Part shown: positions 46 to 51,030 of the stretch, piece by piece
Layout of the letters: every line of letters begins with the position of its first letter
How positions within the stretch are numbered: the stretch's first letter is position 1
Assembly (NCBI GenBank): GCA_049647265.1
Contig: JBARXJ010000015.1
Location: 1 to 64,000 of the forward strand
Direction: 5' to 3'
Source: Microcoleaceae cyanobacterium
GTDB lineage: Bacteria; Cyanobacteriota; Cyanobacteriia; Cyanobacteriales; Microcoleaceae
DNA length: 64,000 nt
Program-made: the position numbers and the translations under genes
The notes under the pieces: generated by a model
What the model was told of the DNA's origin: nothing
The model's database searches: none
The model's input: only the letters and a program-made list of their open reading frames with translations

Positions 46-198
46 GCCATGAAATTCACGCTTTAAGTGAGGCGTTTCTGCGGAGAAATATTCCCAGTTA
101 GCTTACACGTCATTATACCTAACTGAATAATTCCAAAACATTTTTATAAATCTTCCGGAATCGTTAACCCTTTCTCCGAGAATATAAATAGTAGATGC

Positions 199-245
199 AC
201 CCTGATTGAGTCCTGGATAAAATTATCTGGGGCTATTTTTTTTTG
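199..245 (+). repeat. Copy 2 of the ~45-bp terminator-like direct repeat
   Basis: ACCCTGATTGAGTCCTGGATaaAATtaTCtGGGGCTATTTTTTTTT, about 90% identical to copy 1 and 198 bp downstream of it. Confidence 0.5.
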
Positions 246-5678: not shown

Positions 5679-5932
5679 TCTGACTCATCCTCAGAAGAAT
5701 TAGCCTTTCCAACGCCAAGCTGTTTTTTTGATTTTTTTAGTTGTTTCCACAGGAACTTAATTTGTTGATAAGCTTCCTCGGCTGAAATTTTACCATTAGT
5801 TTCTAATGCACAAATATAGCTTGCCCGTTGAGCAAATTCCTGTAAATTGGCATTAAATGCTAAATTTTCTGGGGTAAATTCTCCTCTATAGGAACTACGG
5901 GGATAGAGGAACTCATCACGGTCATTCATCAT
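5672..5932 (-). CDS. Hypothetical protein (86 aa, conserved-looking, acidic C-terminal tail)
   Basis: ORF only. It overlaps the 3' end of the glycosyltransferase gene by 7 nt on the opposite strand. Confidence 0.35.
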   Translation of the reverse strand: MMNDRDEFLYPRSSYRGEFTPENLAFNANLQEFAQRASYICALETNGKISAEEAYQQIKFLWKQLKKSKKQLGVGKANSSEDESDQ

Positions 5933-18855: not shown

Positions 18856-21537
18856 ATGTCTTTTTCTCCTAAGTTTCTCACAGGTGATGAAATTCGGCAA
18901 AAATTTCTCAACTTTTATGCTGAACGAAATCATAAAATTATGCCAAGTGGATCGCTTGTTCCTGAAGATCCAACCGTCCTATTAACTATCGCTGGGATGT
19001 TACCCTTTAAGCCGATCTTTTTAGGGCAAAAACCCCGTGAAGTTCCTCGCGCTACCACTTCTCAGAAATGTATCCGAACCAACGATATTGAAAACGTCGG
19101 ACGAACTGCCCGTCACCATACATTTTTTGAAATGTTAGGTAATTTTAGCTTTGGGGATTATTTTAAACAACAGGCTATTAGTTGGGGTTGGGAACTCTCT
19201 ACAGAAGTATTTGGTTTACCGCCAGAACGTTTAATTGTTAGCGTGTTTAAAGATGATGATGAAGCCTTTAATATCTGGCGCGATAACATTGGTATTCCCG
19301 CCCACCGCATCCAACGCATGGGAGAAGCAGATAACTTTTGGAAATCTGGCCCCACTGGCCCTTGTGGCCCCTGTTCAGAAATTTATTATGATTTTCATCC
19401 GGAATTAGGGGATAAAAATATTGACTTAGAAGATGATACGCGGTTTATCGAGTTTTATAACTTGGTTTTCATGCAATATAACCGTGATGCCGATGGCAAT
19501 TTAACTCCGTTACAAAATCAAAATATTGATACGGGAATGGGGTTAGAACGGATGGCGCAAATCTTACAACAAGTGCCGAATAATTATGAAACGGATCTGA
19601 TTTTTCCGATTATTAAAACCGCTGCTGAAATTGCCGGAATTGATTATAGTAAAAGTGACGATAAAACCCAAGTTTCACTGAAAGTGATTGGCGATCATGT
19701 GCGGGCTGTGGTTCATTTAATTACGGATGGGGTAACGGCTTCTAATATTGGTCGAGGTTATGTCTTACGCCGCCTCATTCGTCGTGTGGTTCGTCATGGA
19801 CGGTTAATTGGAATAGAAGGTGAATTTACCACAAAAGTTGCTGAAACTGCGATCAATCTTTCTGAAGCAGTTTATCCGAATGTTAGACAACGAGAAGCAG
19901 TGATAATAGCAGAATTACAACGGGAAGAATCTCGCTTCCTTGAAACCTTAGAACGGGGTGAGAAACTGTTAGCAGAAATGATGGAAAAAGTTTTAAGTCA
20001 AGATGAGTCAATCCCCCCTCAGTCCCCCCTTCAAAAGGGGGGAGGTGTGATATCAGGAAAAGATGCATTTATTTTATATGATACTTATGGTTTTCCGCTG
20101 GAATTAACCCAAGAAATTGCCGAAGAACAGGGTTTAACCGTGGATGCTGAGGGCTTTGAAACGGAGATGGAAGAACAACGTCGCCGTTCTAAAGATGCCC
20201 ATGAAACGATAGATTTAACCGCTCAAGGCAGTTTAGATAAATTAGCAGGATCAATTCTTCCTACGGCATTTTTAGGGCATACAGAACCGTTATCAGAGGC
20301 GGTTATTGCTGCTATTTTAGTAGGTGGAAAATCGGTAGAGTCGGCTGAAGCCGGAACAGAAGTTCAGATAGTTTTAGATCAAACGCCATTTTATGCAGAG
20401 TCTGGCGGACAAATTGGCGATCGCGGTTATTTAGTGGTTGATGATACGATTGTCCGGATTGAAGATGTACAAAAAGAATCGAATATTTTCATTCATATTG
20501 GATATATTGAACGGGGAATATTATCAACGGGAATGACCGTCAATGCCCGCATAGATCGCGCTTGTCGTCGTCGCGCCCAAGCTAATCATACCGCAACCCA
20601 TTTATTGCAAGCCGCGTTACGTTCTATTGTTGATTCTAACATCTCGCAAGCGGGTTCAATGGTGTCTTTTGATCGGTTGCGGTTTGACTTTAATTGTCCT
20701 CGTAATTTAACCGCAGAAGAACTACAAGAAGTGGAGGATAAAGTGAATAGTTGGATCGCTGAAGCACATCCGGCAATTGTCGCAGAAATGCCCATAGAAG
20801 AAGCCAAAGCAAAAGGTGCGATCGCTATGTTTGGTGAGAAGTATAGTGATGTCGTTCGGGTAGTAGATTATCCGGGGGTTTCGATGGAATTATGCGGCGG
20901 AACTCATGTAGGAAATACAGCCGAAATAGGCTTATTTAAGATTATCTCAGAAACCGGAATTTCATCAGGAATTCGACGCATAGAAGCAGTAGCAGGACAG
21001 TCTGTTTTAGACTATTTAAATGTGCGAGATAATGTGGTGAAAGAATTAAGCGATCGCTTTAAAGCAAAACCGGAAGAATTACCGGATCGCATTACTAATT
21101 TGCAAACTGAGTTAAAAAATACTCAGAAACAATTAGACGCGGCTAAAGCAGAAATAGCGATCGCAAAATCCGATCAATTATTAGCAGAAGCTGAAACTGT
21201 TGGCGAGTTTAAAATTATCGTCGCAGAGTTGGAAAATGCTGATGCAAATTCCCTCACGACTGCTGCTGAAAGGTTGCAACAAAAGTTAGGTGAAGCAGCG
21301 GTTATATTGGGATCTTCTCCTGCCGAAGGTAAAGTCAGTTTAGTGGCGGCATTTAGTCCGAAAGTTCATAAGGAGAAGAAATTACAAGCCGGAAAATTCA
21401 TCGGCAGTATCGCTAAAATTTGCGGCGGTGGCGGCGGTGGACGACCGAATTTAGCCCAAGCTGGCGGACGCGATCCGAGTAAGTTAAAAGAGGCATTAGA
21501 GAGTGCAAAATCTCAGTTAATTGAGGCGTTAGGGTAG
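18856..21537 (+). CDS. alaS: Alanine--tRNA ligase
   Basis: Class II aaRS motifs, HxxxH...CGGTH editing domain, C-terminal DHHA1 GGGGGRP. 893 aa. Confidence 0.95.
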
Positions 21538-21579
21538 TTTATCGGGGTGGGCATTGCCCACCTTACTATTTAAAATATA

Positions 21580-21822
21580 ATGAGGATAAATATGTCTTCA
21601 ACTGTGAAAATATTGTATGACAAAGAAGGAGATTTTCTCGAAGTCACTTTTTCAGATAAACCCGGTTATATGAGAGAAACAGATAATGATGCAATTATGG
21701 AACGAGTCGATCGAGATGGAAATTTGTTAGGTTTTTCTGTATTAGCGGTGAGTCGTCTTTCAACCGATCGGCCATTAATTGCAGAGTTAGTTGCTAGTGT
21801 TAAAGACTCAAAGAATAAATAG
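21580..21822 (+). CDS. DUF2283-domain protein
   Basis: 80 aa with ILYDKEGDFLEVTFSD ... DGNLLGFSVLAVSRL, which is typical of DUF2283. Confidence 0.6.
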   Translation: MRINMSSTVKILYDKEGDFLEVTFSDKPGYMRETDNDAIMERVDRDGNLLGFSVLAVSRLSTDRPLIAELVASVKDSKNK

Positions 21823-21860
21823 TAATTTTAAGGATGATCTTGATTAAAAATAATTTGTAA

Positions 21861-22514
21861 TTATGGACGAGCAAATTTATTCAGTTCTTCAACCAGTAAA
21901 TGTACTGTTGTGGAAGGATTATCTATTGCAGGCTGAGGCGGGTTATATTGTTCTAAAAGCTTCTTAGCATTTTTAATCGCTTGCAGTTGTAATCTTTCTA
22001 AATACTCATACATATTACTATCATTTTTCTGATATTGCTGATTTTTCTTAATCAAATTTGCTTTTATAAGTTTTTCAGTAAGTTCTTTTTGATATTCTTT
22101 GCGAGACATTGCTGTGTCACGATAGTCAAAATGTAGAATATACCAAATCTCAAAAGCTTCGTTAGAATAAGCAACTTTAATATTATTTTTTTTAGCAATA
22201 TCTAAAGCTTGATTAAATTGTTCTTTTGAAAATGAGTTTTTATCAAAAACACACCATACTTGATCATAGTCTCCATCATCTTCTTTTAACTTAATGGCTT
22301 CTTTAACCAAATTTACTGTATTTTCTCCTATGCCTCTAATATCTAGTTCTACTACATTTTTAGGTACACGAAAATGCTTAAAATAATTCGGTTCAGTTTT
22401 ACTCCCTTCACACACAATTAAAAATCGCTGTATTTTATCTCTAGAATTTACTGTTCTATTTTTATAGGCGCGAGATTTTCTTCTATTGTTATTTTTAGAA
22501 GATTTAGGATTCAT
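21861..22514 (-). CDS. RloB-family protein (AbiLii/RloB-like, Toprim-related)
   Basis: Hallmark N-terminal motif LIVCEGSKTEPNYF. 217 aa. Overlaps the upstream ATPase gene by 11 nt. Confidence 0.75.
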   Translation of the reverse strand: MNPKSSKNNNRRKSRAYKNRTVNSRDKIQRFLIVCEGSKTEPNYFKHFRVPKNVVELDIRGIGENTVNLVKEAIKLKEDDGDYDQVWCVFDKNSFSKEQFNQALDIAKKNNIKVAYSNEAFEIWYILHFDYRDTAMSRKEYQKELTEKLIKANLIKKNQQYQKNDSNMYEYLERLQLQAIKNAKKLLEQYNPPQPAIDNPSTTVHLLVEELNKFARP

Positions 22515-23808
22515 TATTTTCTGACTTAATAACTTGACTTAAATCTCCAATGAAGGGAATAGCGCCATATCTACCTTTAATATAATCATTTTCACTGATA
22601 TCATCATTATCGATTTTATACTCCACTAAAGAATATAAATCTGTAGCGCCTTGTCTATCTTTTTCTGTAAACCATATTTGATCTCTTCTAAAGATTTTAT
22701 CTGTCAGTAAATTAGTGTCATGAGTCATAAAAATAAGTTGTGCATTATTTGTATTAGTTATTTTAGAATTAAATAAATCAATAATAGTTCGCGTAATTAA
22801 TGGATGGAGTCTTGCATCTAATTCATCAATGACTAATACTTCTCCTTGTCTTAGGGTTTCTAAAATTGGGCCAGTGAAAGCAAATAACTTTTGTGTTCCA
22901 TCTGACTCATTTCTATCTAAATCAAACTTTTCTATGGAAACAACTTTACCTTTAGAATCATATTTTTCGTGAAATGTATTAATATCATGAGTTCTTGATT
23001 TTAATATTACAGAATTAACAAATAACTGTATTACTCTTTCTGGAAAACTAGGTAATTCTTCTGAAACTAGCTTTCTAGCTTTTACATCAATATTATCTAT
23101 TCCTAAATCAAGCTTTTGAATTAACTGAATAATGTCAGAGCTATTTTTCTCAAAATATGTAATTGTGTATGTCTTATATACTTCACTATCTCTATTAAAT
23201 AGAACATTGAGCTTTTTATCAAAAAAAAATAAACTTTTCCGAGATATTTCTCCATTAAACTGAGCAACAACAGAAAGAAAAAGAGCATTATTTCTAGTTT
23301 TACTAAAAATACTATCTCCTTCATTAAAACCTTTATTGATTTTGATTTTATCTTTTTTTCTTTCAAAGAGCTTAAATTCTTTTATTTTAGGGACATGAAA
23401 TAACCATTCAGAGACTACCTGCTTTCTATTAACTTCAAATCCATATCGATATATTCTATTATCTTCTAAAAAAACAATTTCAAAAAAAGAAGGTTTATTC
23501 TCAGTCTCAGTGCTTAATCTGAAAATTTCGACATTAATTGAGTCTGTAATTTGTGTTTCTCGTGATGAATTCAGCACAAACCATCGCATAAAATGAATGG
23601 CTTTTACTAAATTACTTTTGCCACTGGCATTTGCGCCATAAACCGCAGCACTTTTTAATAAAGTTAACTCTTCATCAACGTGAATTAGATTATTTTCATC
23701 TAGCTTATTATTTAATGATGCTTCATTTGCAGCCACCATACTAAAAGTGACTTTGTCTTTAAAAGATAAGTAATTAGCCACGCTGAATTCTATCAGCATA
23801 ATACTCAA
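22504..23808 (-). CDS. AAA_21-type (SMC/ABC-like) ATPase (AbiLi/RloA-like)
   Basis: N-terminal IEFSVANYLSFKD, Walker A GANASGKS, C-terminal VLVIDELDARLHP (Walker B / D-loop). 434 aa, about 30% GC. Confidence 0.8.
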   Translation of the reverse strand: MSIMLIEFSVANYLSFKDKVTFSMVAANEASLNNKLDENNLIHVDEELTLLKSAAVYGANASGKSNLVKAIHFMRWFVLNSSRETQITDSINVEIFRLSTETENKPSFFEIVFLEDNRIYRYGFEVNRKQVVSEWLFHVPKIKEFKLFERKKDKIKINKGFNEGDSIFSKTRNNALFLSVVAQFNGEISRKSLFFFDKKLNVLFNRDSEVYKTYTITYFEKNSSDIIQLIQKLDLGIDNIDVKARKLVSEELPSFPERVIQLFVNSVILKSRTHDINTFHEKYDSKGKVVSIEKFDLDRNESDGTQKLFAFTGPILETLRQGEVLVIDELDARLHPLITRTIIDLFNSKITNTNNAQLIFMTHDTNLLTDKIFRRDQIWFTEKDRQGATDLYSLVEYKIDNDDISENDYIKGRYGAIPFIGDLSQVIKSENNES

Positions 23809-24056
23809 AAAATAATAATTAAAACTTATAACTTAAGATATAATCGAAAGTTTTATCTAAATTATACCCTGTTGTGTATACTTATACAACTCATCTAGCT
23901 TCATAGCTTACTTAAAAATATATTCTAAATTGTTAATGAGTTCTAGAATTAGTCAAACAAAAAGATAATACTTAAATAGAGTGTGATTAAATCATTGGAC
24001 AGACTGATTCTCATCTATAGACTTATAATAAACTAATAAACTCATCCTAATAGTAC

Positions 24057-24695
24057 TTGATGAAAATTTTAATAGTTGAAGATGACCCGATGATGCAACT
24101 AGGGTTAGAACAAATCTTATCCAAAAAGTCTAATTTAACAATCATTGGAATAGCTGAAGATGGCTATATGGGGGTTGAAATGGCACTGCAACAACAACCA
24201 GATATAGTGTTAATGGATATTGGTTTACCTCGCCTTGATGGTATCGAAGCAACCCAGCGAATTAAGCAAGCAGCGCCTGATATTCGGGTGGTGATGTTAA
24301 CCTCTCATAGTGCGGAAACAGAGGTTGTTGCAGCGTTATCCAGTGGTGCAGATGCTTATTGTATTAAGGGAAAGAACACAGATCGGATCTTTTCTGCTAT
24401 TCAAGCGGCTTACGAGGGAGCCACTTATCTTGATCCACAAATTGCTCGGTTAGTAGTAGATCGTTTACAACCTTCAATATCATCTCATCCACCCATTCAA
24501 ACCAATTTATCTGAACGAGAAATGCAAGTTTTAAACTTATTAGTCGAAGGTAAAAGTAATCCTCAAATTGCCAAAGAATTGTATTTAAGTCCGAATACAA
24601 TTAAAGTTCACGTTCGGGGAATTATGAATAAATTAACAGTTGACGATCGCGTACAGGCGGCGGTAGTCGCGTTACGATCTGGACTGGTTCAGTAA
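24057..24695 (+). CDS. Two-component response regulator, NarL/FixJ (LuxR HTH) family
   Basis: REC domain (ILIVEDDP...D54-like) plus a C-terminal LuxR HTH LSEREMQVLNLLVEGKSNPQIAKELYLSPNTIKVH. Confidence 0.85.
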   Translation: MMKILIVEDDPMMQLGLEQILSKKSNLTIIGIAEDGYMGVEMALQQQPDIVLMDIGLPRLDGIEATQRIKQAAPDIRVVMLTSHSAETEVVAALSSGADAYCIKGKNTDRIFSAIQAAYEGATYLDPQIARLVVDRLQPSISSHPPIQTNLSEREMQVLNLLVEGKSNPQIAKELYLSPNTIKVHVRGIMNKLTVDDRVQAAVVALRSGLVQ

Positions 24696-24791
24696 CTATT
24701 TTAATATCAGATAAAAAAAGAGACATTCTCAATAGAACATCTCTGTGAAACAGTTAACAGATCGCTAAATTATTCTGTTACGAAGAATTTA

Positions 24792-25430
24792 CTATTCCAA
24801 TTCAGAGGGGGGTAAAATGACTGCGTCAATGGCATGAATAACACCGTTGCTTGCTAGAATATCGGCTTGAGTCACAGTTGCATCGTTGATCATGACTGCT
24901 TGAGTCGTTTCATCAACCTGAATATTGATCGCTTCACCTTGAACTGTTTCTACTGCACCTGGTGCAATTTCAGTGGACAGGACTTGAGTCGGTACAACGT
25001 GGTAAGTTAACAGCTTAACTAACTGATCTTTGTTTTCGGGCTTGAGTAACTCTTCAACAGTTCCTTCGGGTAACGCAGCGAAGGCTTCGTCTGTGGGAGC
25101 AAATACGGTGTAAGGACCATCTCCAGAAAGAACTTCTGCTAAGTCTGCGGCACTGAGTGCTGCAACTAAAGTGCTGAATGTATCGTCTTGGCTAGCAACT
25201 CCAACAATTGTGTCTACTGCGGCATCGTTAGCGACAGGAGTTGCAGCGGTGTCTGCATCCAGTGTAGGCGCTTCAGCAGTGGTTGTATCGGGTGTTTCTA
25301 CAGCTTGCTCTTCAGTTGTCGTATTTTCAGCGGTAGGAGTCGTACCACCACAAGCAGCTAAGAAGGAAACAGCTCCTACAGCGGTGAGTAGAACAAAAGC
25401 TTTTTTGGTAATTACAGAGATGTTAGTCAT
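24792..25430 (-). CDS. Fasciclin (FAS1)-domain lipoprotein
   Basis: Lipobox LAACGG, Thr/Ala-rich linker, FAS1 motifs ([22 protein letters not shown]). Confidence 0.78.
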
Positions 25431-25659
25431 ATCAGCTTGTAAAACAAATTAACGAGAGAATAACAAATTGTTTCTCGATTTGCGGTAATTATAACAAATT
25501 CTAAACAAATGTCAAGCTTAAATTTTCATAAAGTGTGGTACAATAATTTATTTTGATATTGCCATCTATCCATAGGTATAAATCATTATTTGTCTGGGCG
25601 TAAGATTGAGAACCAATTGAGCATAAACTATAAACCTGTAACTCAACTGATCTCGATCA

Positions 25660-26517
25660 ATGAAGATTCAAGGAACCACTAAATTATTGGGTGTGATCGG
25701 TTATCCTGTGGAACATTCCCTATCTCCGGTAATGCACAATGCAGCGATCGCTCATTTAGGAGAAGATTACGTTTATCTGCCCTTACGCATTTCTCCAAAC
25801 GACTTAAGTACTGCCTTAGAAGGCTTTGCTGCAATGGGTGTGCGAGGGTTTAGTATTACCATCCCTCACAAACAGGCCATTATTCCCCTATTATCAGAAG
25901 TCTCTACCGTGGCTCAGTCCGTGGGGGCGGTGAATACAGTTTGGTCTAAACCCGACGGTTGGGGGGGAACAAATACCGATGTTGTGGGATTTATTGCTCC
26001 GTTACAAGCTTATGAGGTGGACTGGAATTCAAAGAAAGTCGTCATTTTAGGTAATGGCGGCGCTGCTCGAGCTGTAGTGGCTGGATGTGCTCAATTAGGT
26101 TTAGGTGAAATTCATGTCGTCGGGCGTAACGCTGAAAAATTAGCCCAGTTTCAAACCAGTTGGTTAGAGTCTCCGATGGCAGTTTGTCTAAAAATCCATC
26201 TTTGGGAGGAATTATCAACTTTAATGGCAGAAACTGATTTATTAGTTAATACAACCCCAGTGGGTATGTTTCCCCATGGCGATCGCTCTCCCGTTGACGA
26301 GAGGGTGATGGATCAGCTTCGACCCGCTACAATTGTTTATGATTTAATATATCGCCCCAGTCCGACTCAATTTCTTAAGTTTGCGGAGCTGCGAGGCGCG
26401 ATCGCCATTGATGGGTTAGAAATGTTAGTCCAACAAGGGGCAGCAGCGTTAGAAATCTGGTTAAAGCAACCTGTCCCCGTTGAGGTGATGCGCGAGGCTT
26501 TACAACAGCAGCTTTAA
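25660..26517 (+). CDS. aroE: Shikimate dehydrogenase
   Basis: GVIGYPVEHSLSP N-terminus, NTD motif, GNGGAARA Rossmann. Confidence 0.88.
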   Translation: MKIQGTTKLLGVIGYPVEHSLSPVMHNAAIAHLGEDYVYLPLRISPNDLSTALEGFAAMGVRGFSITIPHKQAIIPLLSEVSTVAQSVGAVNTVWSKPDGWGGTNTDVVGFIAPLQAYEVDWNSKKVVILGNGGAARAVVAGCAQLGLGEIHVVGRNAEKLAQFQTSWLESPMAVCLKIHLWEELSTLMAETDLLVNTTPVGMFPHGDRSPVDERVMDQLRPATIVYDLIYRPSPTQFLKFAELRGAIAIDGLEMLVQQGAAALEIWLKQPVPVEVMREALQQQL

Positions 26518-41963: not shown

Positions 41964-44900
41964 TCACTGTCGTTCTGAGGGATCGACACGGAACCGTTCT
42001 ACAGAGGTGAGTAGGTCGCGAGCCACCCCCACTAGATTACTTAAGGCACTCGACACCCGATGGGCTTCTTGAGAGGTTTCTTGAGCGCTATGTTCGACGG
42101 CTTGCATTACCTGAGCCACAGCCCGAGCGGTTTCATTTTGTTCGACTGTATCAGCGGTAATCGAGCGCACTAATACATCAATTCTATTCGTTACTTGAAT
42201 GATATCATCTAGCGATCGCTTGGCATCTTCAGCCAGGCGGGTTCCTTCAATCACCTGTTGGTTTCCTTCTTCCATTGCCATCATTACAGAACTGGTTTGG
42301 CTCTGAATTTGCATCACAATTTGTTCAATTTCTTTTAAGGATTTCGCAGAACGATCTGCTAACTGTCGAACTTCATCGGCTACAATGGCAAAACCCCGTC
42401 CAGCCTCCCCAGCCCGTGCCGCTTCAATACTGGCGTTTAACGCGAGTAAGTTGGTTCTTGAGGCAATCTGAGAAATAATCGCCACAATTTTAGAAATTTC
42501 TTGAGAAGATTCCGCCAAACGCTTGACATCTCGGGTCGTTTCTGCAACAGTTTCGCGAATTTTCAAAATCCCTGCCACGGTCATTTCTACAGACTCTCCC
42601 CCCTTAGTCGCCACAGCCGCAGCAGAGCGGGCCACTTCTTCGGCTTCTCGGGCACAGTCTGCAACCCGTTGAATCGCATCTGTTAGGACTTGTACTGAAT
42701 TAAGAGTGGCAGCCAGTTCTTCTGCTTGTCGGAGGGCATCCCCTGCCACATCTTTAGCAAACATGGAGCTATCGGTTGCCCCTTTACTCACCTGACGAGC
42801 GGCGTGTTTGACCTGTACCACAATTTCTCGTAGGTTTTGAATGGTGAGGTTAAACGAGTCTGCGACCGCTCCCAATACGTCAGCGGTGACTTCTGCCGTG
42901 ACCGTTAAATCTCCTCGGGCTGCACCTTCTACATCATCGAGGAGGCGAATCACTTGACGTTGTAGATTTTCTTTGGCTTCTTCCTGCTCTTCTGCTTTGC
43001 GTTGAGCTTCTATGGTAGTCGTTTCAATAAACTGAGCCATTTGATTAAACCGGGTAGACATTTGACCCAGTTCATCGGCCGCATAAACTGTTGAGCGAGC
43101 TTTCAAGTTATTCTTTGTAATGGCATCAAACTGAAACTGCAAGTCATCAGAGGCTTTCACCATCTGTTTTGAAGTCAAACGCCCCATAAATAGAGCGGCA
43201 CTAAAACTACTGAGACCCGCAACGGCAGTCATAATCCAGCCTGTGGTTCGCAGGTAGCTGACCACATCATTGCGTCGATCATAAACCGCAGTTTGAGTGG
43301 CAATATTGGTAGCCAGTGCCACACTAATTAAGCTAGCAATCCCCGCTCCAATGGCGGTATAGAAGAACTTGGTTCTGATGGGAGCATTTTCTAGAAAAGC
43401 CAGGGGCCCTTGTTCGACAGAAATCGTTGTTTCTACCGCATCTTCAGTTTGGGGTGTAAAGGTGGTAACGGCCTCTTTATCGAGAGAGAGCGACCCGAAC
43501 AACTCACCACTGCCAATCGATGAGCTATCGTTCTCAATGGCGCTGCTGGTGGTCGTTGCCACAAAGTTACTATCAACTTCTTCATCAAATTCTGTACTTT
43601 CCCCCAGAAAAGCAGAAGTATCATTAGCAGACACTTCAAAATCTGGGATATCTCCTAAGTCATCAAACTCTTCAAACCCGTCTAAAAAGTCATCCGCGTC
43701 TGTCGGGGGTGGAGCCATAGAGTCTTCTTCTTCATCGTAAGCACTTGAGTCATCGTACCCATTAGAAAAGTCCACAACAGACATAGAATTATCATTTTCG
43801 GAAGTTTCTGAGTCTAAAGGATCGACCTCAAAGCCTTCTGAAAATTCATCCATTGGAAAGGCAAATGTCTCATCGGAGGAATAATCTGACATCTCATCTG
43901 AGTCCGAATCGGCTTCGGACATTGCCGCTGAACTGCCTGTGATTAAAGTTTCTGCTTCAACGGAGGAAAAATCAGCATCGGCTCCCTCTGTGTCATAATC
44001 TGTGACCCTGCCATTGCCATTCATATAGCCAAGATCTTCTGTGGATTGAAAATCAAATTCTTCTGAGTCCGACTCATCAACGGTCGCGAAAATATCGTCA
44101 AAATCGTCGTTAAATTCTTCTACGGCGAGTTCTCCGGTGGTGGGTTCGTCTATATCGGTTTGCAGAGGTTCACCCCCGTGAGCAGCCATCGGTAGAGGCT
44201 GCATCGATGAGTCGGACTGATGAGCCTCAGCCGTTTCTGTGGGCATCTCAAACAAATCATCCAAATCTTCAAAATCTGCGGTTGAAGCTATCTGTTGAGT
44301 CTCAAAAGCCTCCATCTCATCTGTTTCTAAAGCTTCGTTAAACAGATCGCCTGAGAGTAAATCACTTTCATCAAGATCGTCATTCACAATGGCTTCATCC
44401 CCCAAGGCAAATGGATCTTCATCAAAATCCATCGGCTCAGATTCGTTTTCTAATTCGGATTGATTCTCTTTTGTGGCTGAGAGTTGAGAGTCAAAGGGAT
44501 TATCTAATTGGGAGTCTAACCCCTGAGACTCCATGGCATATTGCTCAAGATCAGTTTCTGATTCTGCTATTTCGAGTCCGAAGTCCGACTCAACTATTTC
44601 AGGGTTAATCTCGGGTTGAGTTAAACCCGAAGTCGTTGAGCTAAAGTTGTCCTCAAAATCCGACGCTTCAAAATTAGGCTGAGATAAATCAACCGTTTCT
44701 AAATCTAGATCCTGCTCTAGTTCTTCTAGGGTAATATCAGATTGAGATAATTCTAATGCATCAAAATCCTTCAAATCTGTGTCAACACTGACTAATTCTG
44801 AATCAAACTCAGAGTCTGCCTCTGTAAATGTACCCGCCTCAGGCTGAGTGAAATCGTCATCAAAAGTTTCTGAGTCGAGCATGGGAAACGATTCAACTGA

Positions 44901-45299
44901 TTCTAAATCCGAATCTTCCAGTCCTGAATTGTTTTGATCTGCGTTCGTCTCAACTGCCGTTTCAGCAGCATCCATCAAGTCACTGGTGGTACTATCATTC
45001 AGCAGTGCAGAGCTATCGGTGGAGACAAAATGACTTGTCTCTGTAATGGCAGCTTCAGCTTGTTCGAGTAACTCAGCGTTATCTGTCAGACTCAGTACCG
45101 CACTGTACTGTTCTTGAGCCACGTCATATTGTTGTAAGCCATACCCATAGATATGACCACAGAGTAGACGGGCAGATGGATCTTCAGGATAATGTTCAAT
45201 TAACGTGTAAATTAAACCCGCCGCCTCTTCAAAGTTTCCTTGAGTATAGGCGGTCTCTGCCTGTTGATATTCTTGCAGAAAGTCTGCACTCGCTGGCAT
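41964..45299 (-). CDS. pilJ: Methyl-accepting chemotaxis protein with N-terminal TPR and a long acidic low-complexity region; PilJ/HmpD-like
   Basis: TM + HAMP + MCP signalling domain ([33 protein letters not shown]). 1111 aa. No GAF/PAS domains. Confidence 0.85.
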
Positions 45300-45542
45300 T
45301 GCTTATTTCCCCCTCTTCAATATTTCAGGTTGTTAAAGTGTAAGACTTAAAAATTAAAACTAATGTTGATGTTTAGTTTAGATATTACCAATGATATTTC
45401 CGGGCTGGAATGCTTCGGAGCTCATCGACGACGGATGTCGATTTGACTGCAATCTCAGGTGGTGCACAATTTTAGAAGGTCGGGAGGATGCTGCTCGAGA
45501 AACGATATTGATATTACAATTTGATATTGATCAAGTGTCCCG

Positions 45543-46082
45543 TTAAGCGGCCCACCGAGCTGAACGTAGAATGGCGATCTGATCCAGTAGCCGTAGGCAT
45601 TGATCGCTTTCTTCGCCAATTTGCCATTCTCCCTTAATAAAAGGAGCCATGCTATCTGGAACTTGAGTAGACATATGCATTTTCTCTAGATCTAGCCAAG
45701 CCATATCATTAATTGCCTTAACCGCTAATCCTAGGATTGTATCCTGATCCTCAACCGCAATCACGGGAATTTCAGTTCGATCTGTATCTAAAGGCGTTAA
45801 GTCCCCTAAAAACTGACCCAAATCAGCCACCCAAATGACTCTTCCTCTGAGATTAAGAGTGCCGAGCAGTAATGGAGAGACATTGGGAATGGGTGTGATT
45901 CGATCAGGTGATTGAGACAGAACTTCTTTAATGCCCATTGCGGGTAGAGCAAATTCATAGCCTGATGAGACATAGAACCGCAGGTGGGGTTCTCCCTCAG
46001 GAGTTTCAAGTTCCTGAAACTCTGGGCTATCAGGGCCTTGTCCGGTTAAAAAATCTGGATTTCCGACCATCATCAACCTCAC
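45543..46082 (-). CDS. pilI: CheW-like coupling protein (PilI/HmpC-like)
   Basis: 179-aa CheW fold. Confidence 0.78.
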   Translation of the reverse strand: MRLMMVGNPDFLTGQGPDSPEFQELETPEGEPHLRFYVSSGYEFALPAMGIKEVLSQSPDRITPIPNVSPLLLGTLNLRGRVIWVADLGQFLGDLTPLDTDRTEIPVIAVEDQDTILGLAVKAINDMAWLDLEKMHMSTQVPDSMAPFIKGEWQIGEESDQCLRLLDQIAILRSARWAA

Positions 46083-46084
46083 CC

Positions 46085-46456
46085 TTATCCTCTAAGTAAC
46101 TGCTTCACCGTCCCCACCAATTCTGTCGGTTGAAAGGGTTTAGCAATGTAGGCATCTGCCCCCTGTTTCATGCCCCAATACCGATCAAACTCTTCGCCTT
46201 TAGAAGAGCACATGACAATGGAAATTTTCTTGGTTTTGGGATCAGATTTAAGCCGTCGGCACAGCTCATAACCATTCATCCGAGGCATCACAATATCCAG
46301 TACAACCAACTGAGGCCATTGCGATTGTGTCTGTATCTTTTCTATTGCCTCTACTCCATCGCAGGCTACCAGAACCTGCAAACCACTGTCTTTCAGGAGA
46401 TTAGAAATCATCTCCCGCTGGGTTACACTATCTTCTACTACCATAACTGTACTCAT
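46085..46456 (-). CDS. pilH: CheY-like single-domain response regulator (PilH/HmpB-like)
   Basis: REC domain with MVVEDS...D and KP motifs. 123 aa. It lies 2 nt from the cheW-like gene. Confidence 0.85.
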   Translation of the reverse strand: MSTVMVVEDSVTQREMISNLLKDSGLQVLVACDGVEAIEKIQTQSQWPQLVVLDIVMPRMNGYELCRRLKSDPKTKKISIVMCSSKGEEFDRYWGMKQGADAYIAKPFQPTELVGTVKQLLRG

Positions 46457-46700
46457 ATGCTCTGGCTAACTGACTGAATGACTGACTGCAAGCTAAACTT
46501 ACCGGATTTTAACTTTCAAAAGAAAATGTTCAACCCTATTTACCCCGCTCAATAGTAACGAATACCAGCGCACTGGGGTGGTCGGTCACAGACAGGATGA
46601 TAACGACAATGGAAATAACTCTAATATATTAATGTTTCATTCAAGTATACCCAAATTATCTCCAGATTGATTAAGCGCTCATCAGAGTCTGACGATCGCG

Positions 46701-47930
46701 CTATTGATTGATAGAGTGATCGAGTTCATCGGCGAGGAGTCGTTCTGAGGGAGGGTGGTGCGGATTGCCTAGCCCCACATAGGATTCAACTAAGGTCAGC
46801 AGTTCATTTTCCCCAAACGGTTTGGTTAGATAGTTCGTTGCTTGTACCATGCGAGCTTTGAGCCGATCGATAAAACCGTCAATTCCGGTTAACATCACAA
46901 TGGGAGTTTGACAAAAGATGGTTGAACTTCGTAGCATGGCACAAATTTCATAACCATTCAGTTCAGGCATAGCGATGTCACACAAAATTAAATCCGGTTT
47001 GAGTTGGAAGACTAAACCCAAAGCTTTTAGGGGGTTACTGATACCGGTGGCTTCGTAGCCGTTTTGATTGAGGATCAATTCAACCGTTTCTCGAATCACA
47101 ATATCATCATCAATACAGACAATTCGAGGGACACGAGTCCGAACAGAGAGGACTTCAGATCCATCAGCACTGGTTGGGGTATCTCGGTTCAGTAATTGCA
47201 CCAGTCCCTGTTGGACAAAGGGATACATTGCTTTTGTAACCGTGACAATATCTCGATTGAGATAGCGGGCAATCTGACGCAGCGATGTCGTGCCATCAGC
47301 CCAACGATTTAGGGTTTCAAAGGCATGAGCCCCCACCGTTTGCCGTAACTTTTCGGGATTGGGAATCAGGGGACATTGGTTAGGAGATTGAACGTGAGGA
47401 TTAAAGGTTTTCCAAGTTTGTACTTGCTTAACAATCTTTTTCAGCAGTCCGTCAATTTCAAGAGTTGTCAGTTGAGGGGCTAAAGGTGCGCCCATCTCAA
47501 AAATAAATGAACCACTGTGTAAACTCAGCAGATCAAACAAAGTCTCCCGTACCATGCCATGAATAATGGTTCGCCCTTGAGCGGGTGTAATCACTTTTTG
47601 CTCGAGCAGAAACCACAAATAGCCATATTCTGGAGCATTGACTGTGGCAATAGCAGCGGCTTCTAGTTGATCTAGAGCGGTATCAACTTCGTAGCGGTGT
47701 AAATAATCCCGCAGTCGCGACAAATTATTTTCACTTTCGCCTGCATAAATAATTCGACCGTTGAAACAAAAAACTAACCAGCATTTCCCAGCAAAACGGT
47801 CCGAAGATCCACCTCTGTGATTATTGGTCACTGGGCTATAAGCCTCCACCATCAATTCTCCGGTTCGCTGACCGAGTTCGAGCAATTGTAAAATGCTACG
47901 GATATCAATTTCACTCAAAGAGCCTTGCAT
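46701..47930 (-). CDS. pilG: PatA-type response regulator (N-terminal PATAN/DUF4388 domain + C-terminal REC); PilG/HmpA-like
   Basis: A C-terminal REC domain (IVCIDDD...D...KP) is preceded by an approximately 270-aa PATAN-like domain. Confidence 0.72.
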   Translation of the reverse strand: MQGSLSEIDIRSILQLLELGQRTGELMVEAYSPVTNNHRGGSSDRFAGKCWLVFCFNGRIIYAGESENNLSRLRDYLHRYEVDTALDQLEAAAIATVNAPEYGYLWFLLEQKVITPAQGRTIIHGMVRETLFDLLSLHSGSFIFEMGAPLAPQLTTLEIDGLLKKIVKQVQTWKTFNPHVQSPNQCPLIPNPEKLRQTVGAHAFETLNRWADGTTSLRQIARYLNRDIVTVTKAMYPFVQQGLVQLLNRDTPTSADGSEVLSVRTRVPRIVCIDDDIVIRETVELILNQNGYEATGISNPLKALGLVFQLKPDLILCDIAMPELNGYEICAMLRSSTIFCQTPIVMLTGIDGFIDRLKARMVQATNYLTKPFGENELLTLVESYVGLGNPHHPPSERLLADELDHSINQ

Positions 47931-48288
47931 GTAGCAAGTGACCTCCTGATCACAGTATAAGTGCTATTCATATACATCCTCTCACACCAACTTCTATCTA
48001 AAGGGGGCGGATTTTACCCGTTTGGCACGTTGCCCAGAGTCATTGATCAAACTTCTTAACCCGATTCGAGGCTTACAATATTGAGGAATTTAACCATGAG
48101 TCCATTGTTCATCATGTGATGAAAATTTAATATGACTCGAGTAGAGTCTTGTTCAACTTTGTACACCTGATCGGCTTGCTGGGGTAAAATGTTTGTCAAC
48201 AGATCAATGCCAAGGTCGAACACGGATGTAAGACTATTATGATGGAATTAAGGCAGATCCGATCAAATACCTGACGAGGATAATCACC

Positions 48289-50031
48289 GTGCTGTATTTA
48301 GCAGAAGTACAAAAGCAGAGAAGTGGTTTTGGCTTGGGCGGGGCTAAAGCTGAACTCAAATTATTGGCCTGTCAGCGAGGTGAAAATCAATGGAGCGCTG
48401 TATCAGGTGATGAGTTGGTCGTGGCTGATGATGCTAACTCTTTTAAAGATGGAGCATTAGTCCTAGTTGATCTGAGTGCGAGTAAACAAGTACAGCGTAT
48501 TCAAGAAGCGGCTCGTCAGCTCGTCTTAATTCTCCAAGATTTCTCTCGACAAAGTGATAAAACCAAACGACAAGAAGAAGAAATTGAACAGTGGAAGGAG
48601 TCTTTAACTTATCAAAGTCAAGAACTGAACCGTCGCGAGATGGAACTCGAAGCTCGCCAAGAACAACTGGTTCAACTCGAAGCTGAATTAGAGCAACTCG
48701 ATCAGCAGCGGCAAGAGGTGGAAACGGCTCAAGCAGAAGGAAATCGGCTTCAGCAAGAGCTCGAACAAGCCCGTCAAGAGATTGAGACAGCCAAAGCTGA
48801 GCTACAACAACAAATGCAAGCGCTTCAAGCGCAGCAGGCCGATTTACAAGCCAATCAAGGACTCTCAGAAGAACAAATTCAAGTCCTTCAGGAATTGTTA
48901 CAGCGATCTGATCCCCAAATCGCAACCGAGCCGATTGAGCATCAACTGCAACAGATACTGCAACAGATTTCTGATAGCCAAGAACTGATCGATCAACATT
49001 GGCAACAGCTTATACAGCAGCAACAAACCCTTAATCAAGTTCAAAATGAAATTGAGGAGCGTTCTCAACAGATTCAATCCCAGTGGCGGGAATGGGATCA
49101 AACTCAAAAAGAACTGATTCAAACCGCAACTAAATTACAAGCTGAACAAACGGGCCTGCAAGCCAAGCAAGATGTGGCAAATGTTTGGCAAACTCAATTG
49201 CAAAGCCGTCAACAGCTTATACAACAGCTTGAACAACTTGCGGCGAAATCGGATGATTCGAGTGGGGTCAGTGTAATGGTTAATATTGCCGCCCTCGAAG
49301 CAATGCCGGTTAATCAGTTGCAAACTGAGGTAGAAAAGTTACAGCAAGAATGGGATCGACTGTTTCGGATGGTTAAAGAACAGGAAGAAGAACTGAAGTC
49401 AAAACAAGAAGAAATTGACGAGATTCAACAGAAAATTCCTTCTGTAGCAGACCATGAACGCTCTAATTTACAGTCTGAACTCACTGATGAGCAAGATGCT
49501 TATCAAATGTTGAATGAAACTTTAGTCGGTCAACGACGCACCCTGAGGGAACGGGAAGAAAGAATGCAGCAACATCAGGCGGTTCTGTTTCGGCGGCAGG
49601 GGACTCCGGCAGATGCGACTCAGAATGGTTTGGTGAGCTTTAAGTCTGTTATTGCTCAACTCAATACCCAACAATCTCAGCAATCTCAACAATATGACAC
49701 CCTAACAGCAGAGATTGGGCAATTACAAACCGCCATGACTCAAACCCAAGAAGAACTTGAACGTCAAACTCATCAACAACAAGAAAAGCGCCAGCGGATT
49801 CGCTCAGATGAATACAGTTTACGGGAGCATTATCAGTCTTTGGCACGACTTCAAGGTCAGGTGAGTCTTCATCAAGAGCTACTACAACCGCTCAAAGATC
49901 AACTCAAAGACCTCAACAAACAGCTTGAACAAACTGAAAATGATTACAATCAACTCACGGAGGCGGCAGGACAACAAGCTCAAACGATGGCAGAACTAAA
50001 AACCACTCTCGATCGCTTAGTTTCAAGTTAA
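48289..50031 (+). CDS. hmpF: HmpF-like coiled-coil protein (Gln/Glu-rich, about 580 aa), divergently transcribed from the pilG-like operon
   Basis: Almost entirely coiled-coil sequence with a short globular N-terminus. The synteny matches the Nostoc hmpF/hmp arrangement. Confidence 0.5.
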   Translation: MLYLAEVQKQRSGFGLGGAKAELKLLACQRGENQWSAVSGDELVVADDANSFKDGALVLVDLSASKQVQRIQEAARQLVLILQDFSRQSDKTKRQEEEIEQWKESLTYQSQELNRREMELEARQEQLVQLEAELEQLDQQRQEVETAQAEGNRLQQELEQARQEIETAKAELQQQMQALQAQQADLQANQGLSEEQIQVLQELLQRSDPQIATEPIEHQLQQILQQISDSQELIDQHWQQLIQQQQTLNQVQNEIEERSQQIQSQWREWDQTQKELIQTATKLQAEQTGLQAKQDVANVWQTQLQSRQQLIQQLEQLAAKSDDSSGVSVMVNIAALEAMPVNQLQTEVEKLQQEWDRLFRMVKEQEEELKSKQEEIDEIQQKIPSVADHERSNLQSELTDEQDAYQMLNETLVGQRRTLREREERMQQHQAVLFRRQGTPADATQNGLVSFKSVIAQLNTQQSQQSQQYDTLTAEIGQLQTAMTQTQEELERQTHQQQEKRQRIRSDEYSLREHYQSLARLQGQVSLHQELLQPLKDQLKDLNKQLEQTENDYNQLTEAAGQQAQTMAELKTTLDRLVSS

Positions 50032-50772
50032 CTCTGCTACTTCTGGTATTTCTAAGGTCACTTCTGCTTGGGGGTCTGCGGGTAAACAAATTAGGTTGTC
50101 ACCTTGAGTATAAATTAACCCTTGTTGTCTGAGTTTTCCCATCAACCGAGTTACTGTGACTCGGGTTGAACCGATGGCACTCCCAATCTGAGAGTGAGTT
50201 AATGGCCAGGGTAAACAGTAGCCCCGAAACTCTTCTGTTCCCATTGGCCCGACATAATATTCTCCGTATTCTTCGATCAGTAAGGTAATAAACCCAAATA
50301 AGCGATCTATTGTCCGGCGTTGCCCTAATGTACTCAGCCACAATAACTTCCGTTGATGCTGATAGCGAAACGCATCTAAGACTTCTCGGCGGAAATGGGG
50401 CCAATTGTCTAAATCTTCCCAGTACATCCATAGGACACTAGTATCATCTGCATGGGCATAAGCCTGAAGAGAAAACGGAGACTGAGCCACTAATTCAAAC
50501 GGTTGACCCGCGCCCACAAACCCTAAAAAGGCTTCGTCTAAATTTCTAGATGCTGCTTTAGGATCAACTTGAGAGGTGACGGCGCTCAGTTGAGCACTAC
50601 CCACCAGCCTCACAGCCCCCCGCTGTACTAAATAGAGCAAACCCGGTCGGGCAGGAATCCGTTCGTCTTTATTAAAACTACGACAGCGGTAATGTTCCTG
50701 CGCCCAGTCAATAATCCGTTGCCAGGTCAGAAAAGGTCGATTACGATCTGGAGAAATTGAAGGTAATTCCAT
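50023..50772 (-). CDS. Crp/Fnr-family-like transcription regulator (divergent effector domain + C-terminal HTH)
   Basis: C-terminal HTH LTHSQIGSAIGSTRVTVTRLMGKLRQQGLI. It overlaps the hmpF-like 3' end by 9 nt on the opposite strand. Confidence 0.5.
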   Translation of the reverse strand: MELPSISPDRNRPFLTWQRIIDWAQEHYRCRSFNKDERIPARPGLLYLVQRGAVRLVGSAQLSAVTSQVDPKAASRNLDEAFLGFVGAGQPFELVAQSPFSLQAYAHADDTSVLWMYWEDLDNWPHFRREVLDAFRYQHQRKLLWLSTLGQRRTIDRLFGFITLLIEEYGEYYVGPMGTEEFRGYCLPWPLTHSQIGSAIGSTRVTVTRLMGKLRQQGLIYTQGDNLICLPADPQAEVTLEIPEVAELT

Positions 50773-51030
50773 AGAAAAATATTGAGAAACTAAATTTATA
50801 TCCGGATGACCACTGACTGAATCAAGTCAAGTTGATTTGGGAGTTACACTGACCCATTGATTCACTCATCAGTATAAGCTACATTTTATACTTGGCTGTT
50901 GTCAGGGTGACCTACTGCTCTAATGTAACAAAAAACACATCTGTTTGACGACCCTAGGAGCCAGGTAATTCATGATTGATTGTGTAAAAAAGACTGATTT
51001 TTTGCTGAACTCGATCCGGAGTTAGTCACT

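What the first reader, a model, noticed from the sequence alone, without database searches (positions are those of the whole stretch)
21823..24056. AT-rich, HIP1-free islet carrying an overlapping AAA_21 ATPase + RloB-family gene pair (AbiL/RloAB-like candidate anti-phage module)
Seen in the sequence. Two co-oriented minus-strand genes overlap by 11 nt, which suggests translational coupling. The upstream 434-aa protein has an SMC/ABC-type ATPase signature: Walker A GANASGKS and a C-terminal VLVIDELDARLHP. The downstream 217-aa protein starts with the RloB hallmark LIVCEGSKTEPNYF. By eye the block is about 30% GC against about 43% in the flanks. It contains no GCGATCGC (HIP1) octamer, whereas more than 40 occur in the rest of the window. 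It sits between a core gene (alaS) and a response regulator.
Established knowledge. AAA_21 (PF13304) ATPases paired with RloB-family (PF13707, Toprim-related) proteins form the restriction-linked RloA/RloB pair and the AbiL-type abortive-infection pair. OLD, Gabija and PARIS use the same ATPase + Toprim logic.
Inference. This is a horizontally acquired defence islet. The cyanobacterial version may be a divergent or unstudied subtype.
Basis: partly seen in the sequence, partly recalled or inferred. Interest (0 to 1): 0.8.

Follow-up and report, generated by a model that had tools for sequence, protein, structure and literature searches.

The report
AbiL-type ATPase plus nuclease defence cassette
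This is an ordinary member of a known two-gene candidate anti-phage system (AbiL: an ABC ATPase plus a small RloB nuclease-like protein) in a variable spot beside alaS in a filamentous cyanobacterium; it is correctly spotted but not new.

Summary
Two minus-strand genes overlap by 11 nt: 22504-23799 (431 aa from the conserved ATG) and 21861-22514 (217 aa). They match Pfam AAA_21 (1e-45) and RloB (1e-49), and PADLOC AbiLi (2e-104) and AbiLii (2e-31). The block has the lowest GC (28.6% vs 41.9%) and the most deviant tetranucleotide use in the 64 kb. The lack of HIP1 is real but not significant alone (35 sites in the window, about 1.1 expected, P about 0.33).

The closest relative (88% nt identity in the flanks) lacks the cassette. 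It has a PemK toxin pair at that spot and a different candidate defence pair next to alaS, so this is a defence/toxin-antitoxin hotspot.

The cassette is probably not a recent import. A Limnoraphis genome carries it in the same alaS-DUF2283 region at 79% nt identity. Its synonymous divergence (0.69-0.74) is close to that of alaS (0.90), and dN/dS is 0.17-0.22.

Hundreds of cyanobacterial homologues exist, always as a stand-alone pair with no restriction genes nearby. The likely mechanism, by analogy with PARIS and P2 OLD, is an ATPase sensor that restrains a Toprim nuclease until infection. This is inferred, not shown.

Verdict: new member of a known kind, low to moderate interest.

The parts
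22504..23799 (-). AbiLi-like ABC (AAA_21/SMC-type) ATPase gene, 431 aa from the conserved ATG. The longest ORF runs to a TTG at 23808. Walker A is at nt 23614-23637; Walker B and D-loop are at 22801-22839.
   Evidence: Pfam AAA_21 9.7e-46. PADLOC AbiLi 1.7e-104. Walker A, Q-loop Q83, signature ES[DE]GT, Walker B D325/E326 and H360 are conserved across 24 homologues. The ATG start is conserved with L081/L082.
21861..22514 (-). RloB/AbiLii-like gene for a putative Toprim-type nuclease, 217 aa. Candidate catalytic Glu36 lies in LIVCEG (nt 22380-22421). The D91-K-N93 motif lies at nt 22236-22244.
22504..22514 (-). 11-nt overlap (ATGAATCCTAA) between the ATPase stop codon and the RloB start codon; likely translational coupling.
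   Evidence: Overlaps of 8-14 nt between the called genes occur in five of the six homologous cyanobacterial contexts: L081 14 nt, L090 14 nt, L083, L086 and L091 8 nt each. In L088 the two genes are called 109 nt apart.
23861..23889 (-). Putative sigma-70-type promoter of the cassette: TTGTAT, 17-nt spacer, TATAAT, about 60 nt upstream of the ATG.
   Evidence: The block is conserved between the window and the Limnoraphis loci L081/L082 while the sequence further upstream is unrelated. This is a consensus match plus conservation only; no transcript data.
21848..23891 (.). Cassette as defined by homology: a block 79% nt identical to the Limnoraphis robusta copy (L081 5912-7979). It comprises promoter, both genes and 13 nt past the RloB stop.
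   Evidence: blastn.
21790..24071 (.). Segment with no counterpart in the closest relative L001. L001 has a 756-bp segment there (L001 14534-15289), most of it taken up by a 61-aa gene plus a PemK/MazF-like gene.
   Evidence: blastn breakpoints. L001 ORFs and Pfam.
21580..21822 (+). Flank, not part of the module: orphan DUF2283 gene, conserved next to alaS in relatives. It marks the left edge of the variable region.
   Evidence: Pfam DUF2283 1.9e-07. Present in L001, L003, L005 and L081.
24057..24695 (+). Flank, not part of the module: NarL/LuxR-type response regulator with host-like GC (0.40), transcribed divergently from the cassette.
   Evidence: Pfam Response_reg and GerE. GC. Reduced to a 71-nt remnant in L001. 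Not adjacent to the cassette in any other context.

Best explanation
This is a two-gene AbiL-type module: an ABC/SMC-like ATPase (AbiLi-like) followed by an overlapping gene for a small RloB/AbiLii-like protein with a Toprim-like active site.

Proposed mechanism (inferred by analogy, not shown):
1. The two proteins are made together from one promoter, with translational coupling.
2. The ATPase oligomer binds the nuclease and keeps it inactive.
3. A phage-derived cue sensed by the ATPase releases or activates the nuclease.
4. The nuclease cuts an essential nucleic acid. tRNA or another RNA is the leading guess; DNA is the alternative.
5. The infected cell is arrested before phage progeny are made (abortive infection, toxin-antitoxin-like logic).

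Origin: the cassette is accessory cargo in a defence/toxin-antitoxin hotspot downstream of alaS-DUF2283 in the Lyngbya/Limnoraphis clade of Microcoleaceae. It has most likely sat there since before the window organism and Limnoraphis diverged, and has been lost or replaced in several relatives.
For: Shown here:
- Strong, specific model hits: Pfam AAA_21 and RloB; PADLOC AbiLi 1.7e-104 and AbiLii 1.5e-31, far above the AriA, GajA and PtuA models.
- All ABC ATPase catalytic motifs are conserved. E36 and D91 of the RloB protein are invariant.
- The gene order, ATPase then RloB, is conserved. It holds in 33 of 43 loci with ATPase relatives down to about 25-40% identity, including (pro)phage contigs. 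The called genes overlap by 8-14 nt in five of six cyanobacterial contexts.
- Both genes are under purifying selection: dN/dS 0.22 and 0.17 against the Limnoraphis copy.
- The cassette is accessory. It is absent from the junction in L001-L006. There it is replaced by PemK, HicAB, VapBC or HNH genes and a PDC-M02 candidate system.
- Relatives sit on 191 plasmids and in temperate phages, including a Lactococcus prophage pair annotated as abortive phage resistance.
- Long residence is supported. The cassette has the same position and orientation in Limnoraphis L081, with 79% nt identity against 81% for the adjacent alaS/DUF2283 DNA. dS is 0.69-0.74 against 0.89-0.90.

From the literature:
- AbiL is grouped with PARIS and MADS as split ABC ATPase plus Toprim systems (PMC11464382).
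- AAA ATPases neutralise TOPRIM_OLD toxins in toxicity assays (PMC10440598).
- PARIS AriB and P2 OLD are tRNases (PMC12409363; bioRxiv 10.64898/2026.07.10.737580).
- Lactococcal AbiL acts after phage transcription (PMC13064643, citing Deng 1999).
Against: - No experiment exists on any cyanobacterial member. The AbiL mechanism itself is unknown, so sensing, sequestration and substrate are all by analogy.
- The second acidic residue of the DxD motif is Asn in this copy. DKN occurs in 12 of 117 close homologues, so activity could be altered.
- No solved structure of a sequence-detectable relative exists. The ATPase model was too poor to use (pLDDT 51.7).
- The persistently low GC and GC3 after long residence is not explained.
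Confidence: 0.6

Rival explanations
1. Recently imported foreign islet. The cassette entered this genome by horizontal transfer from a low-GC donor shortly before sampling, and its AT-richness is unameliorated donor composition.
For: - Lowest GC and strongest tetranucleotide outlier in 64 kb.
- Absent from the closest relative L001, whose flanks are 88% nt identical.
- dS of the cassette against Limnoraphis (0.69-0.74) is somewhat lower than that of alaS (0.90). That would also fit a later transfer between the two lineages.
Against: - The nearest homologue sits in the same alaS-DUF2283 region, in the same orientation, in another genus, with nt divergence matching the flanks.
- No integrase, transposase, tRNA or flanking direct repeats.
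- All cyanobacterial homologues examined are also lower in GC than their hosts, so low GC is a trait of the family rather than a sign of recent arrival.
Confidence: 0.2
2. A selfish toxin-antitoxin addiction module with no role in phage defence. The ATPase neutralises a toxic nuclease, and the pair persists only because losing it is costly.
For: - It lies in a region filled with toxin-antitoxin genes in relatives: PemK, HicAB, VapBC, DUF4258/DUF2283.
- AAA ATPase plus TOPRIM_OLD pairs behave as toxin-antitoxin pairs in E. coli (PMC10440598).
Against: - The founding AbiL pair and the related PARIS system protect against phage (PMC13064643, PMC11464382).
- The cassette has been lost repeatedly in relatives, so addiction is weak.
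- The two roles are not mutually exclusive.
Confidence: 0.12
3. An inactive or decaying remnant. The D93N change in the DxD metal-binding motif has killed the nuclease and the pair is on its way to loss.
For: - The window has DKN where about 90% of close homologues have DxD.
- Truncated RloB genes occur in other genomes: L084 and L085 at 120 aa, L088 at 175 aa.
Against: - Both ORFs are intact.
- dN/dS is 0.17-0.22.
- All other conserved residues are kept.
- DxN recurs in 12 of 117 homologues, which suggests a tolerated variant; Asn can still bind a metal ion.
- The promoter is conserved.
Confidence: 0.06
4. Restriction-linked RloAB-type accessory that works with a type I restriction-modification system, as in Campylobacter hsd loci.
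For: The Pfam family name, and the RloB match itself.
Against: - The immediate neighbours are DUF2283, alaS, a response regulator and a fasciclin-like ORF. The other neighbouring genes that were scanned with Pfam are housekeeping or signalling genes.
- None of the six distinct cyanobacterial contexts has R-M domains within 6-7 kb.
Confidence: 0.02

Closest known systems
Lactococcal AbiL (AbiLi + AbiLii; Deng et al. 1999), as modelled in PADLOC
   Same: Two adjacent co-oriented genes, an ABC/AAA_21 ATPase then an RloB-family protein. Both PADLOC models are the best hits. Shared motifs with a lactococcal prophage pair: (C)EG..TE, FDxD/N and SN...E.W..LHF.
   Different: - Only about 29% (ATPase) and 27% (RloB) identity to the lactococcal prophage pair.
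- Chromosomal rather than plasmid- or prophage-borne.
- DKN instead of DxD.
- No phenotype known.
PARIS (AriA ABC ATPase + AriB Toprim tRNase)
   Same: Split ABC ATPase sensor plus Toprim-type effector. Placed in the same AAA15/21 tree as AbiL (PMC11464382). The PADLOC AriA model matches the ATPase at 1.9e-44.
   Different: - The effector is RloB (PF13707), not DUF4435/AriB; no AriB model hit.
- No sequence-detectable relation to the solved PARIS structures.
- Trigger and substrate are unknown.
Campylobacter RloA/RloB (restriction-linked ORFs)
   Same: Same Pfam family for the small protein, paired with an AAA ATPase.
   Different: Not embedded in a type I R-M locus, either here or in the cyanobacterial homologue contexts.
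OLD-family nucleases and Gabija GajA
   Different: Those have both domains fused in one polypeptide (plus the GajB helicase in Gabija). Here there are two separate small genes and no helicase.
Unnamed two-gene ATPase+Toprim system of Nostoc (Makarova et al. 2011, as cited in PMC13064643)
   Same: A cyanobacterial stand-alone ATPase plus Toprim pair. Nostocalean homologues at 57-59% identity are abundant.
   Different: Identity with that exact system was not checked, because the original paper's locus was not retrieved.

Membership tests
AbiL (PADLOC definition) | Protein matching the AbiLi model | tested here: met
   PDLC02335 AbiLi at 1.7e-104, 347 bits; the next model (AriA) is at 1.9e-44.
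AbiL (PADLOC definition) | Protein matching the AbiLii model | tested here: met
   PDLC02337 AbiLii at 1.5e-31; it is the only PADLOC hit.
AbiL (PADLOC definition) | The two genes are adjacent and co-oriented | tested here: met
   11-nt overlap, both on the minus strand. The order is conserved in 33 of 43 related loci.
AbiL (functional definition) | Abortive-infection phenotype against phage that requires both genes | not testable with these tools
   Needs cloning and phage challenge.
ABC/SMC-type ATPase (Pfam AAA_21) | Score above the gathering threshold, plus Walker A, Q-loop, signature motif, Walker B and H-loop | tested here: met
   157.6 bits against a cutoff of 27. GANASGKS, Q83, ESDGT, D325/E326 and H360 are conserved.
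RloB family (Pfam PF13707) | Full-length match above the gathering score | tested here: met
   169.4 bits against a cutoff of 31.5; profile positions 1-195 of 195.
Toprim nuclease fold | Conserved Glu after strand 1 and a DxD after strand 3 | tested here: inconclusive
   E36 and D91 are invariant and sit at strand ends in the model. The window has D-K-N, not DxD; this variant is seen in 12 of 117 homologues.
Toprim nuclease fold | Structural similarity to solved Toprim/OLD domains | tested here: inconclusive
PARIS | AriB (DUF4435 Toprim) effector next to AriA | tested here: not met
   No AriB model hit for the small protein. The ATPase scores far better on AbiLi than on AriA.
RloAB (restriction-linked) | Located inside or next to a type I R-M (hsd) locus | tested here: not met
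   The neighbouring genes that were scanned are DUF2283, a response regulator, M23 peptidase, TPR, hpf and lipB; alaS, the fasciclin-like ORF and aroE were named by eye or from Pfam calls on relatives. No R-M domains in six homologue contexts.
Gabija / class 1-2 OLD | ATPase and Toprim fused in one protein (plus a UvrD-like helicase for Gabija) | tested here: not met
   Two separate genes and no helicase nearby. GajA models match only at 1e-7.
Septu | HNH nuclease PtuB partner | tested here: not met
   The partner is RloB. PtuA models match only at 1e-5 to 1e-6.

The most novel reading that the evidence does not exclude
The cyanobacterial AbiL clade may be a long-lived, vertically retained immune module. 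On this reading it stays anchored next to alaS in the Lyngbya/Limnoraphis lineage, and its RloB nuclease (including the recurrent DxN active-site variant) targets tRNA. The cassette would then be a tractable entry point to the still-unknown AbiL mechanism, possibly with a metal-site chemistry or substrate different from PARIS AriB.
Probability: 0.1. Interest if true: 0.55.

Novelty: new member of a known kind. Interest (0 to 1): 0.25.

Why it matters
AbiL is detected in many genomes, but its trigger, its substrate and the way its ATPase and nuclease interact remain unknown, and no solved structure of a sequence-detectable relative was found. This locus adds a clean, intact cyanobacterial example under purifying selection, with a defined promoter, defined boundaries and natural present/absent alleles at one hotspot. 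That could help anyone studying defence-island turnover in filamentous cyanobacteria or choosing AbiL homologues for biochemistry. It does not reveal a new kind of system; a standard PADLOC run would label it.

Tried and rejected
- The AlphaFold model of the ATPase built from 24 close homologues was poor (pLDDT 51.7), so no fold search was run on it.
- Sequence and profile searches of both proteins against PDB chains found nothing.
- NCBIfam gave no meaningful family for either protein.
- No flanking direct or inverted repeats suggest a mobile element, only short AT-rich chance matches. The window has no tRNA gene. The only Rfam hit in the window is at 189-241, far from the cassette.
- The terminator scan found nothing convincing downstream of the RloB gene.
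- HIP1 absence was rejected as independent evidence.
- A functional link to the neighbouring response regulator was considered and rejected. It has host-like GC, is absent next to every other cassette, and is deleted in L001.
- A functional link to alaS was considered. The adjacency holds only in this clade, so it is best read as a hotspot effect.
- A scan of viral contigs found only distant relatives (42% identity or less), so there is no evidence that cyanophages carry this clade.
Full report
**1. Observation**

The ORF list shows two minus-strand ORFs, 21861-22514 (217 aa, ATG) and 22504-23808 (434 aa, TTG). They share 11 nt, ATGAATCCTAA. All three quoted motifs are present. Alignment with homologues and with the upstream DNA of the nearest relative shows that the conserved start of the larger gene is the ATG at 23799, giving 431 aa beginning MLIEFSV. 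The upstream TTG is not conserved.

- Composition. The pair has GC 0.286 against 0.419 for the rest of the window. It is the lowest of all 1,948-bp windows (mean 0.415, sd 0.036). GC3 is 0.18 against 0.24-0.40 in the neighbouring genes.
- Tetranucleotides. A scan puts the maximum deviation of the whole 64 kb at 22001-24000 (z about 5.5; 4.9 after correcting for base composition).
- HIP1. The window has 35 GCGATCGC sites, not more than 40. The gap that contains the cassette (21164-25744) is only the fourth largest. About 1.1 sites are expected in the cassette, so finding none has P about 0.33. This point carries no weight alone, although homologous cassettes in three other cyanobacterial loci also have no HIP1 and lower GC than their flanks.
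- Neighbours. The left neighbour is an 80-aa DUF2283 gene, with alaS one gene further. The right neighbour is a NarL/LuxR-type response regulator.

**2. What it is**

- Pfam: the large protein matches AAA_21 at 9.7e-46 and the small one matches RloB at 1.4e-49 over the full profile.
- PADLOC: AbiLi at 1.7e-104 and AbiLii at 1.5e-31. AriA, GajA, PtuA, MADS3 and the candidate-system ATPase models score far lower, and nothing else matches the small protein. NCBIfam has no specific model.
- ATPase alignment. Among 24 homologues (57-74% identical), Walker A GANASGKS, Q83, the signature ES[DE]GT, Walker B D325/E326 and H360 are invariant or nearly so.
- RloB alignment. E36 (in LIVCEG), D91 and the block AYSNEAFE.WY.LH are invariant.
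- One detail. The window has D91-K-N93 where about 90% of close homologues have DxD. The DxN form is found in 12 of 117 close homologues. It therefore looks like a tolerated variant rather than a unique lesion.
- No solved structure of a sequence-detectable relative exists for either protein. The ATPase model was too poor to use.

**3. Relatives and contexts**

The exact proteins are on record from a Microcoleaceae cyanobacterium MAG, annotated 'ATP-binding protein' and 'RloB family protein'. Hundreds of cyanobacterial homologues at 55-75% identity exist for both proteins, and they fall on the same contigs.

Six distinct cyanobacterial contexts were examined: Limnoraphis, Chlorogloeopsis, Kalymmatonema, Dapis, an unclassified cyanobacterium and a Coleofasciculaceae MAG.

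- The pair is always a stand-alone two-gene unit among unrelated genes. In five of the six contexts the genes overlap by 8-14 nt; in the Dapis locus (L088) they are called 109 nt apart.
- There is no third conserved gene and there are no restriction-modification genes.
- Across 43 loci with an ATPase relative, including 29 viral contigs, 33 have a detectable RloB homologue immediately downstream.
- Relatives occur on 191 plasmids and in temperate phages. One is a Lactococcus prophage pair annotated as abortive phage resistance, which also matches AbiLi and AbiLii.

**4. Is it an islet?**

The alaS protein was used to fetch the syntenic region from species-representative genomes.

- Closest relative (L001, an uncultured Lyngbya; flanks 88% nt identical). 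It has alaS, DUF2283, the fasciclin gene, aroE and the histidine kinase in the same order, but no AbiL genes. The window segment 21790-24071 has no counterpart there. L001 has instead a 61-aa gene plus a PemK/MazF-like toxin gene. It also has only a 71-nt remnant of the response-regulator gene, and a PADLOC candidate system (PDC-M02A/B) between alaS and DUF2283.
- Lyngbya PCC 8106 and Limnoraphis robusta BA-68. These carry DUF4258, HNH, VapBC and HicAB genes in this region.
- None of the 80 alaS loci has the cassette within 10 kb.

The region downstream of alaS-DUF2283 is therefore a variable hotspot for defence and toxin-antitoxin genes, and the cassette is accessory.

**5. It is probably not a recent arrival**

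The nearest homologue (73% and 75% aa identity) is in another Limnoraphis robusta assembly. There it lies in the same region and the same orientation. It is separated from DUF2283 by 2.87 kb holding a 61-aa gene, a ParA-like gene, a 297-aa gene and HicAB.

- The block 21848-23891 is 79% nt identical to that copy. The adjacent alaS/DUF2283 DNA is 81% identical.
- Nei-Gojobori estimates give dS 0.69 (ATPase) and 0.74 (RloB), against 0.90 (alaS) and 0.89 (DUF2283). dN/dS is 0.22 and 0.17.

The simplest reading is that the cassette was already in this hotspot in the common ancestor, is kept by purifying selection where present, and has been lost or replaced elsewhere. A later exchange between the two lineages cannot be excluded, because dS is somewhat lower than for alaS and is hard to estimate at GC3 0.18. 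Low GC is shared by every cyanobacterial copy examined, so it is a feature of the family rather than a mark of recent import.

A promoter-like element, TTGTAT-17-TATAAT at 23889-23861 on the minus strand, is conserved with the Limnoraphis copies. Conservation stops just upstream of it, which defines the cassette edge.

**6. How it most likely works**

- Shown: domain content, intact catalytic motifs, conserved gene coupling, purifying selection, and accessory and mobile distribution.
- From the literature: AbiL is placed with PARIS and MADS among split ABC ATPase plus Toprim systems (PMC11464382; PMC13064643). AAA ATPases neutralise TOPRIM_OLD toxins in E. coli (PMC10440598). PARIS AriB and P2 OLD are tRNases released or activated on sensing infection (PMC12409363; bioRxiv 10.64898/2026.07.10.737580). 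Lactococcal AbiL acts after phage transcription (PMC13064643).
- Inferred: the ATPase holds the RloB nuclease inactive and releases it on a phage cue. The nuclease then cuts RNA (most likely tRNA) or DNA and arrests the infected cell.

My rough estimates are about 0.9 that this is an AbiL-family module, about 0.6 that it works as just described, and about 0.3 that the substrate is tRNA.

**7. Comparison and novelty**

All testable defining features of AbiL are met: both models, adjacency and co-orientation. The phenotype cannot be tested here. It is not PARIS (no AriB), not Gabija or OLD (not fused, no helicase), not Septu (no HNH), and not restriction-linked RloAB (no R-M genes seen nearby).

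It is not a divergent subtype. It scores higher on the PADLOC AbiL models than a lactococcal prophage pair does. A cyanobacterial ATPase+Toprim pair has already been noted in the literature (PMC13064643, citing Makarova 2011).

Verdict: a correct identification of an ordinary member of a known but mechanistically unsolved defence family. The useful additions are the hotspot, its natural present/absent alleles, the likely long residence, and the recurrent DxN variant.

Noticed in passing
window 189-241 (+): Rfam match to NsiR1 (nitrogen stress-induced sRNA 1), 47.4 bits against a gathering score of 39. From my own knowledge, NsiR1 is described from heterocyst-forming cyanobacteria, whereas this window is from a Microcoleaceae MAG.
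   Followed up: no
L001 12727-14339: The closest relative carries a PADLOC candidate defence pair, PDC-M02A (DUF4365, 1e-57) and PDC-M02B (7e-21), inserted between alaS and DUF2283. The window has nothing there.
   Followed up: partly
L001 14627-15149; L001 15290-15360 = window 24072-24142: Where the window has the AbiL cassette, L001 has a 61-aa gene plus a PemK/MazF-like toxin gene. The response-regulator gene is reduced there to a 71-nt remnant of its 5' end.
   Followed up: partly
window 21580-21822 (+): Orphan DUF2283 gene. Its usual DUF4258 partner is weakly matched in Limnoraphis L005 (11548-11859; Pfam E 0.001, below the gathering score) but is missing from the window.
   Followed up: partly
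window 48289-50031 (+): A 580-aa Gln/Glu-rich coiled-coil ORF with no Pfam domain. It is the second-strongest tetranucleotide outlier. It lies in the largest HIP1-free gap (42212-51178), next to a CheA/MCP/CheW-type cluster. It has only weak, probably compositional, hits to JetC/LmuB.
   Followed up: partly
L090 1-533 and 7001-8966: One cyanobacterial contig carries two AbiL-type pairs about 7 kb apart.
   Followed up: no
L084 6938-7300; L085 7280-7642; L088 8396-8923: The RloB gene is truncated (120 aa) or shortened and separated from the ATPase gene (175 aa, 109-nt gap) in some assemblies. This suggests occasional decay or assembly error.
   Followed up: no
L094 1278-3018 (E. coli plasmid NZ_LR890654.1): Small mobilizable enterobacterial plasmids of about 4-6 kb carry an AbiLi-like ATPase (PADLOC 7e-72; L094 is the example examined). 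In L094 it is followed by a 145-aa protein with no AbiLii/RloB match, possibly a different effector partner.
   Followed up: partly
L081 about 5895-5912: In the Limnoraphis copy a HIP1 octamer sits exactly at the upstream edge of the block conserved with the window cassette, and a second lies about 120 nt further out.
   Followed up: no
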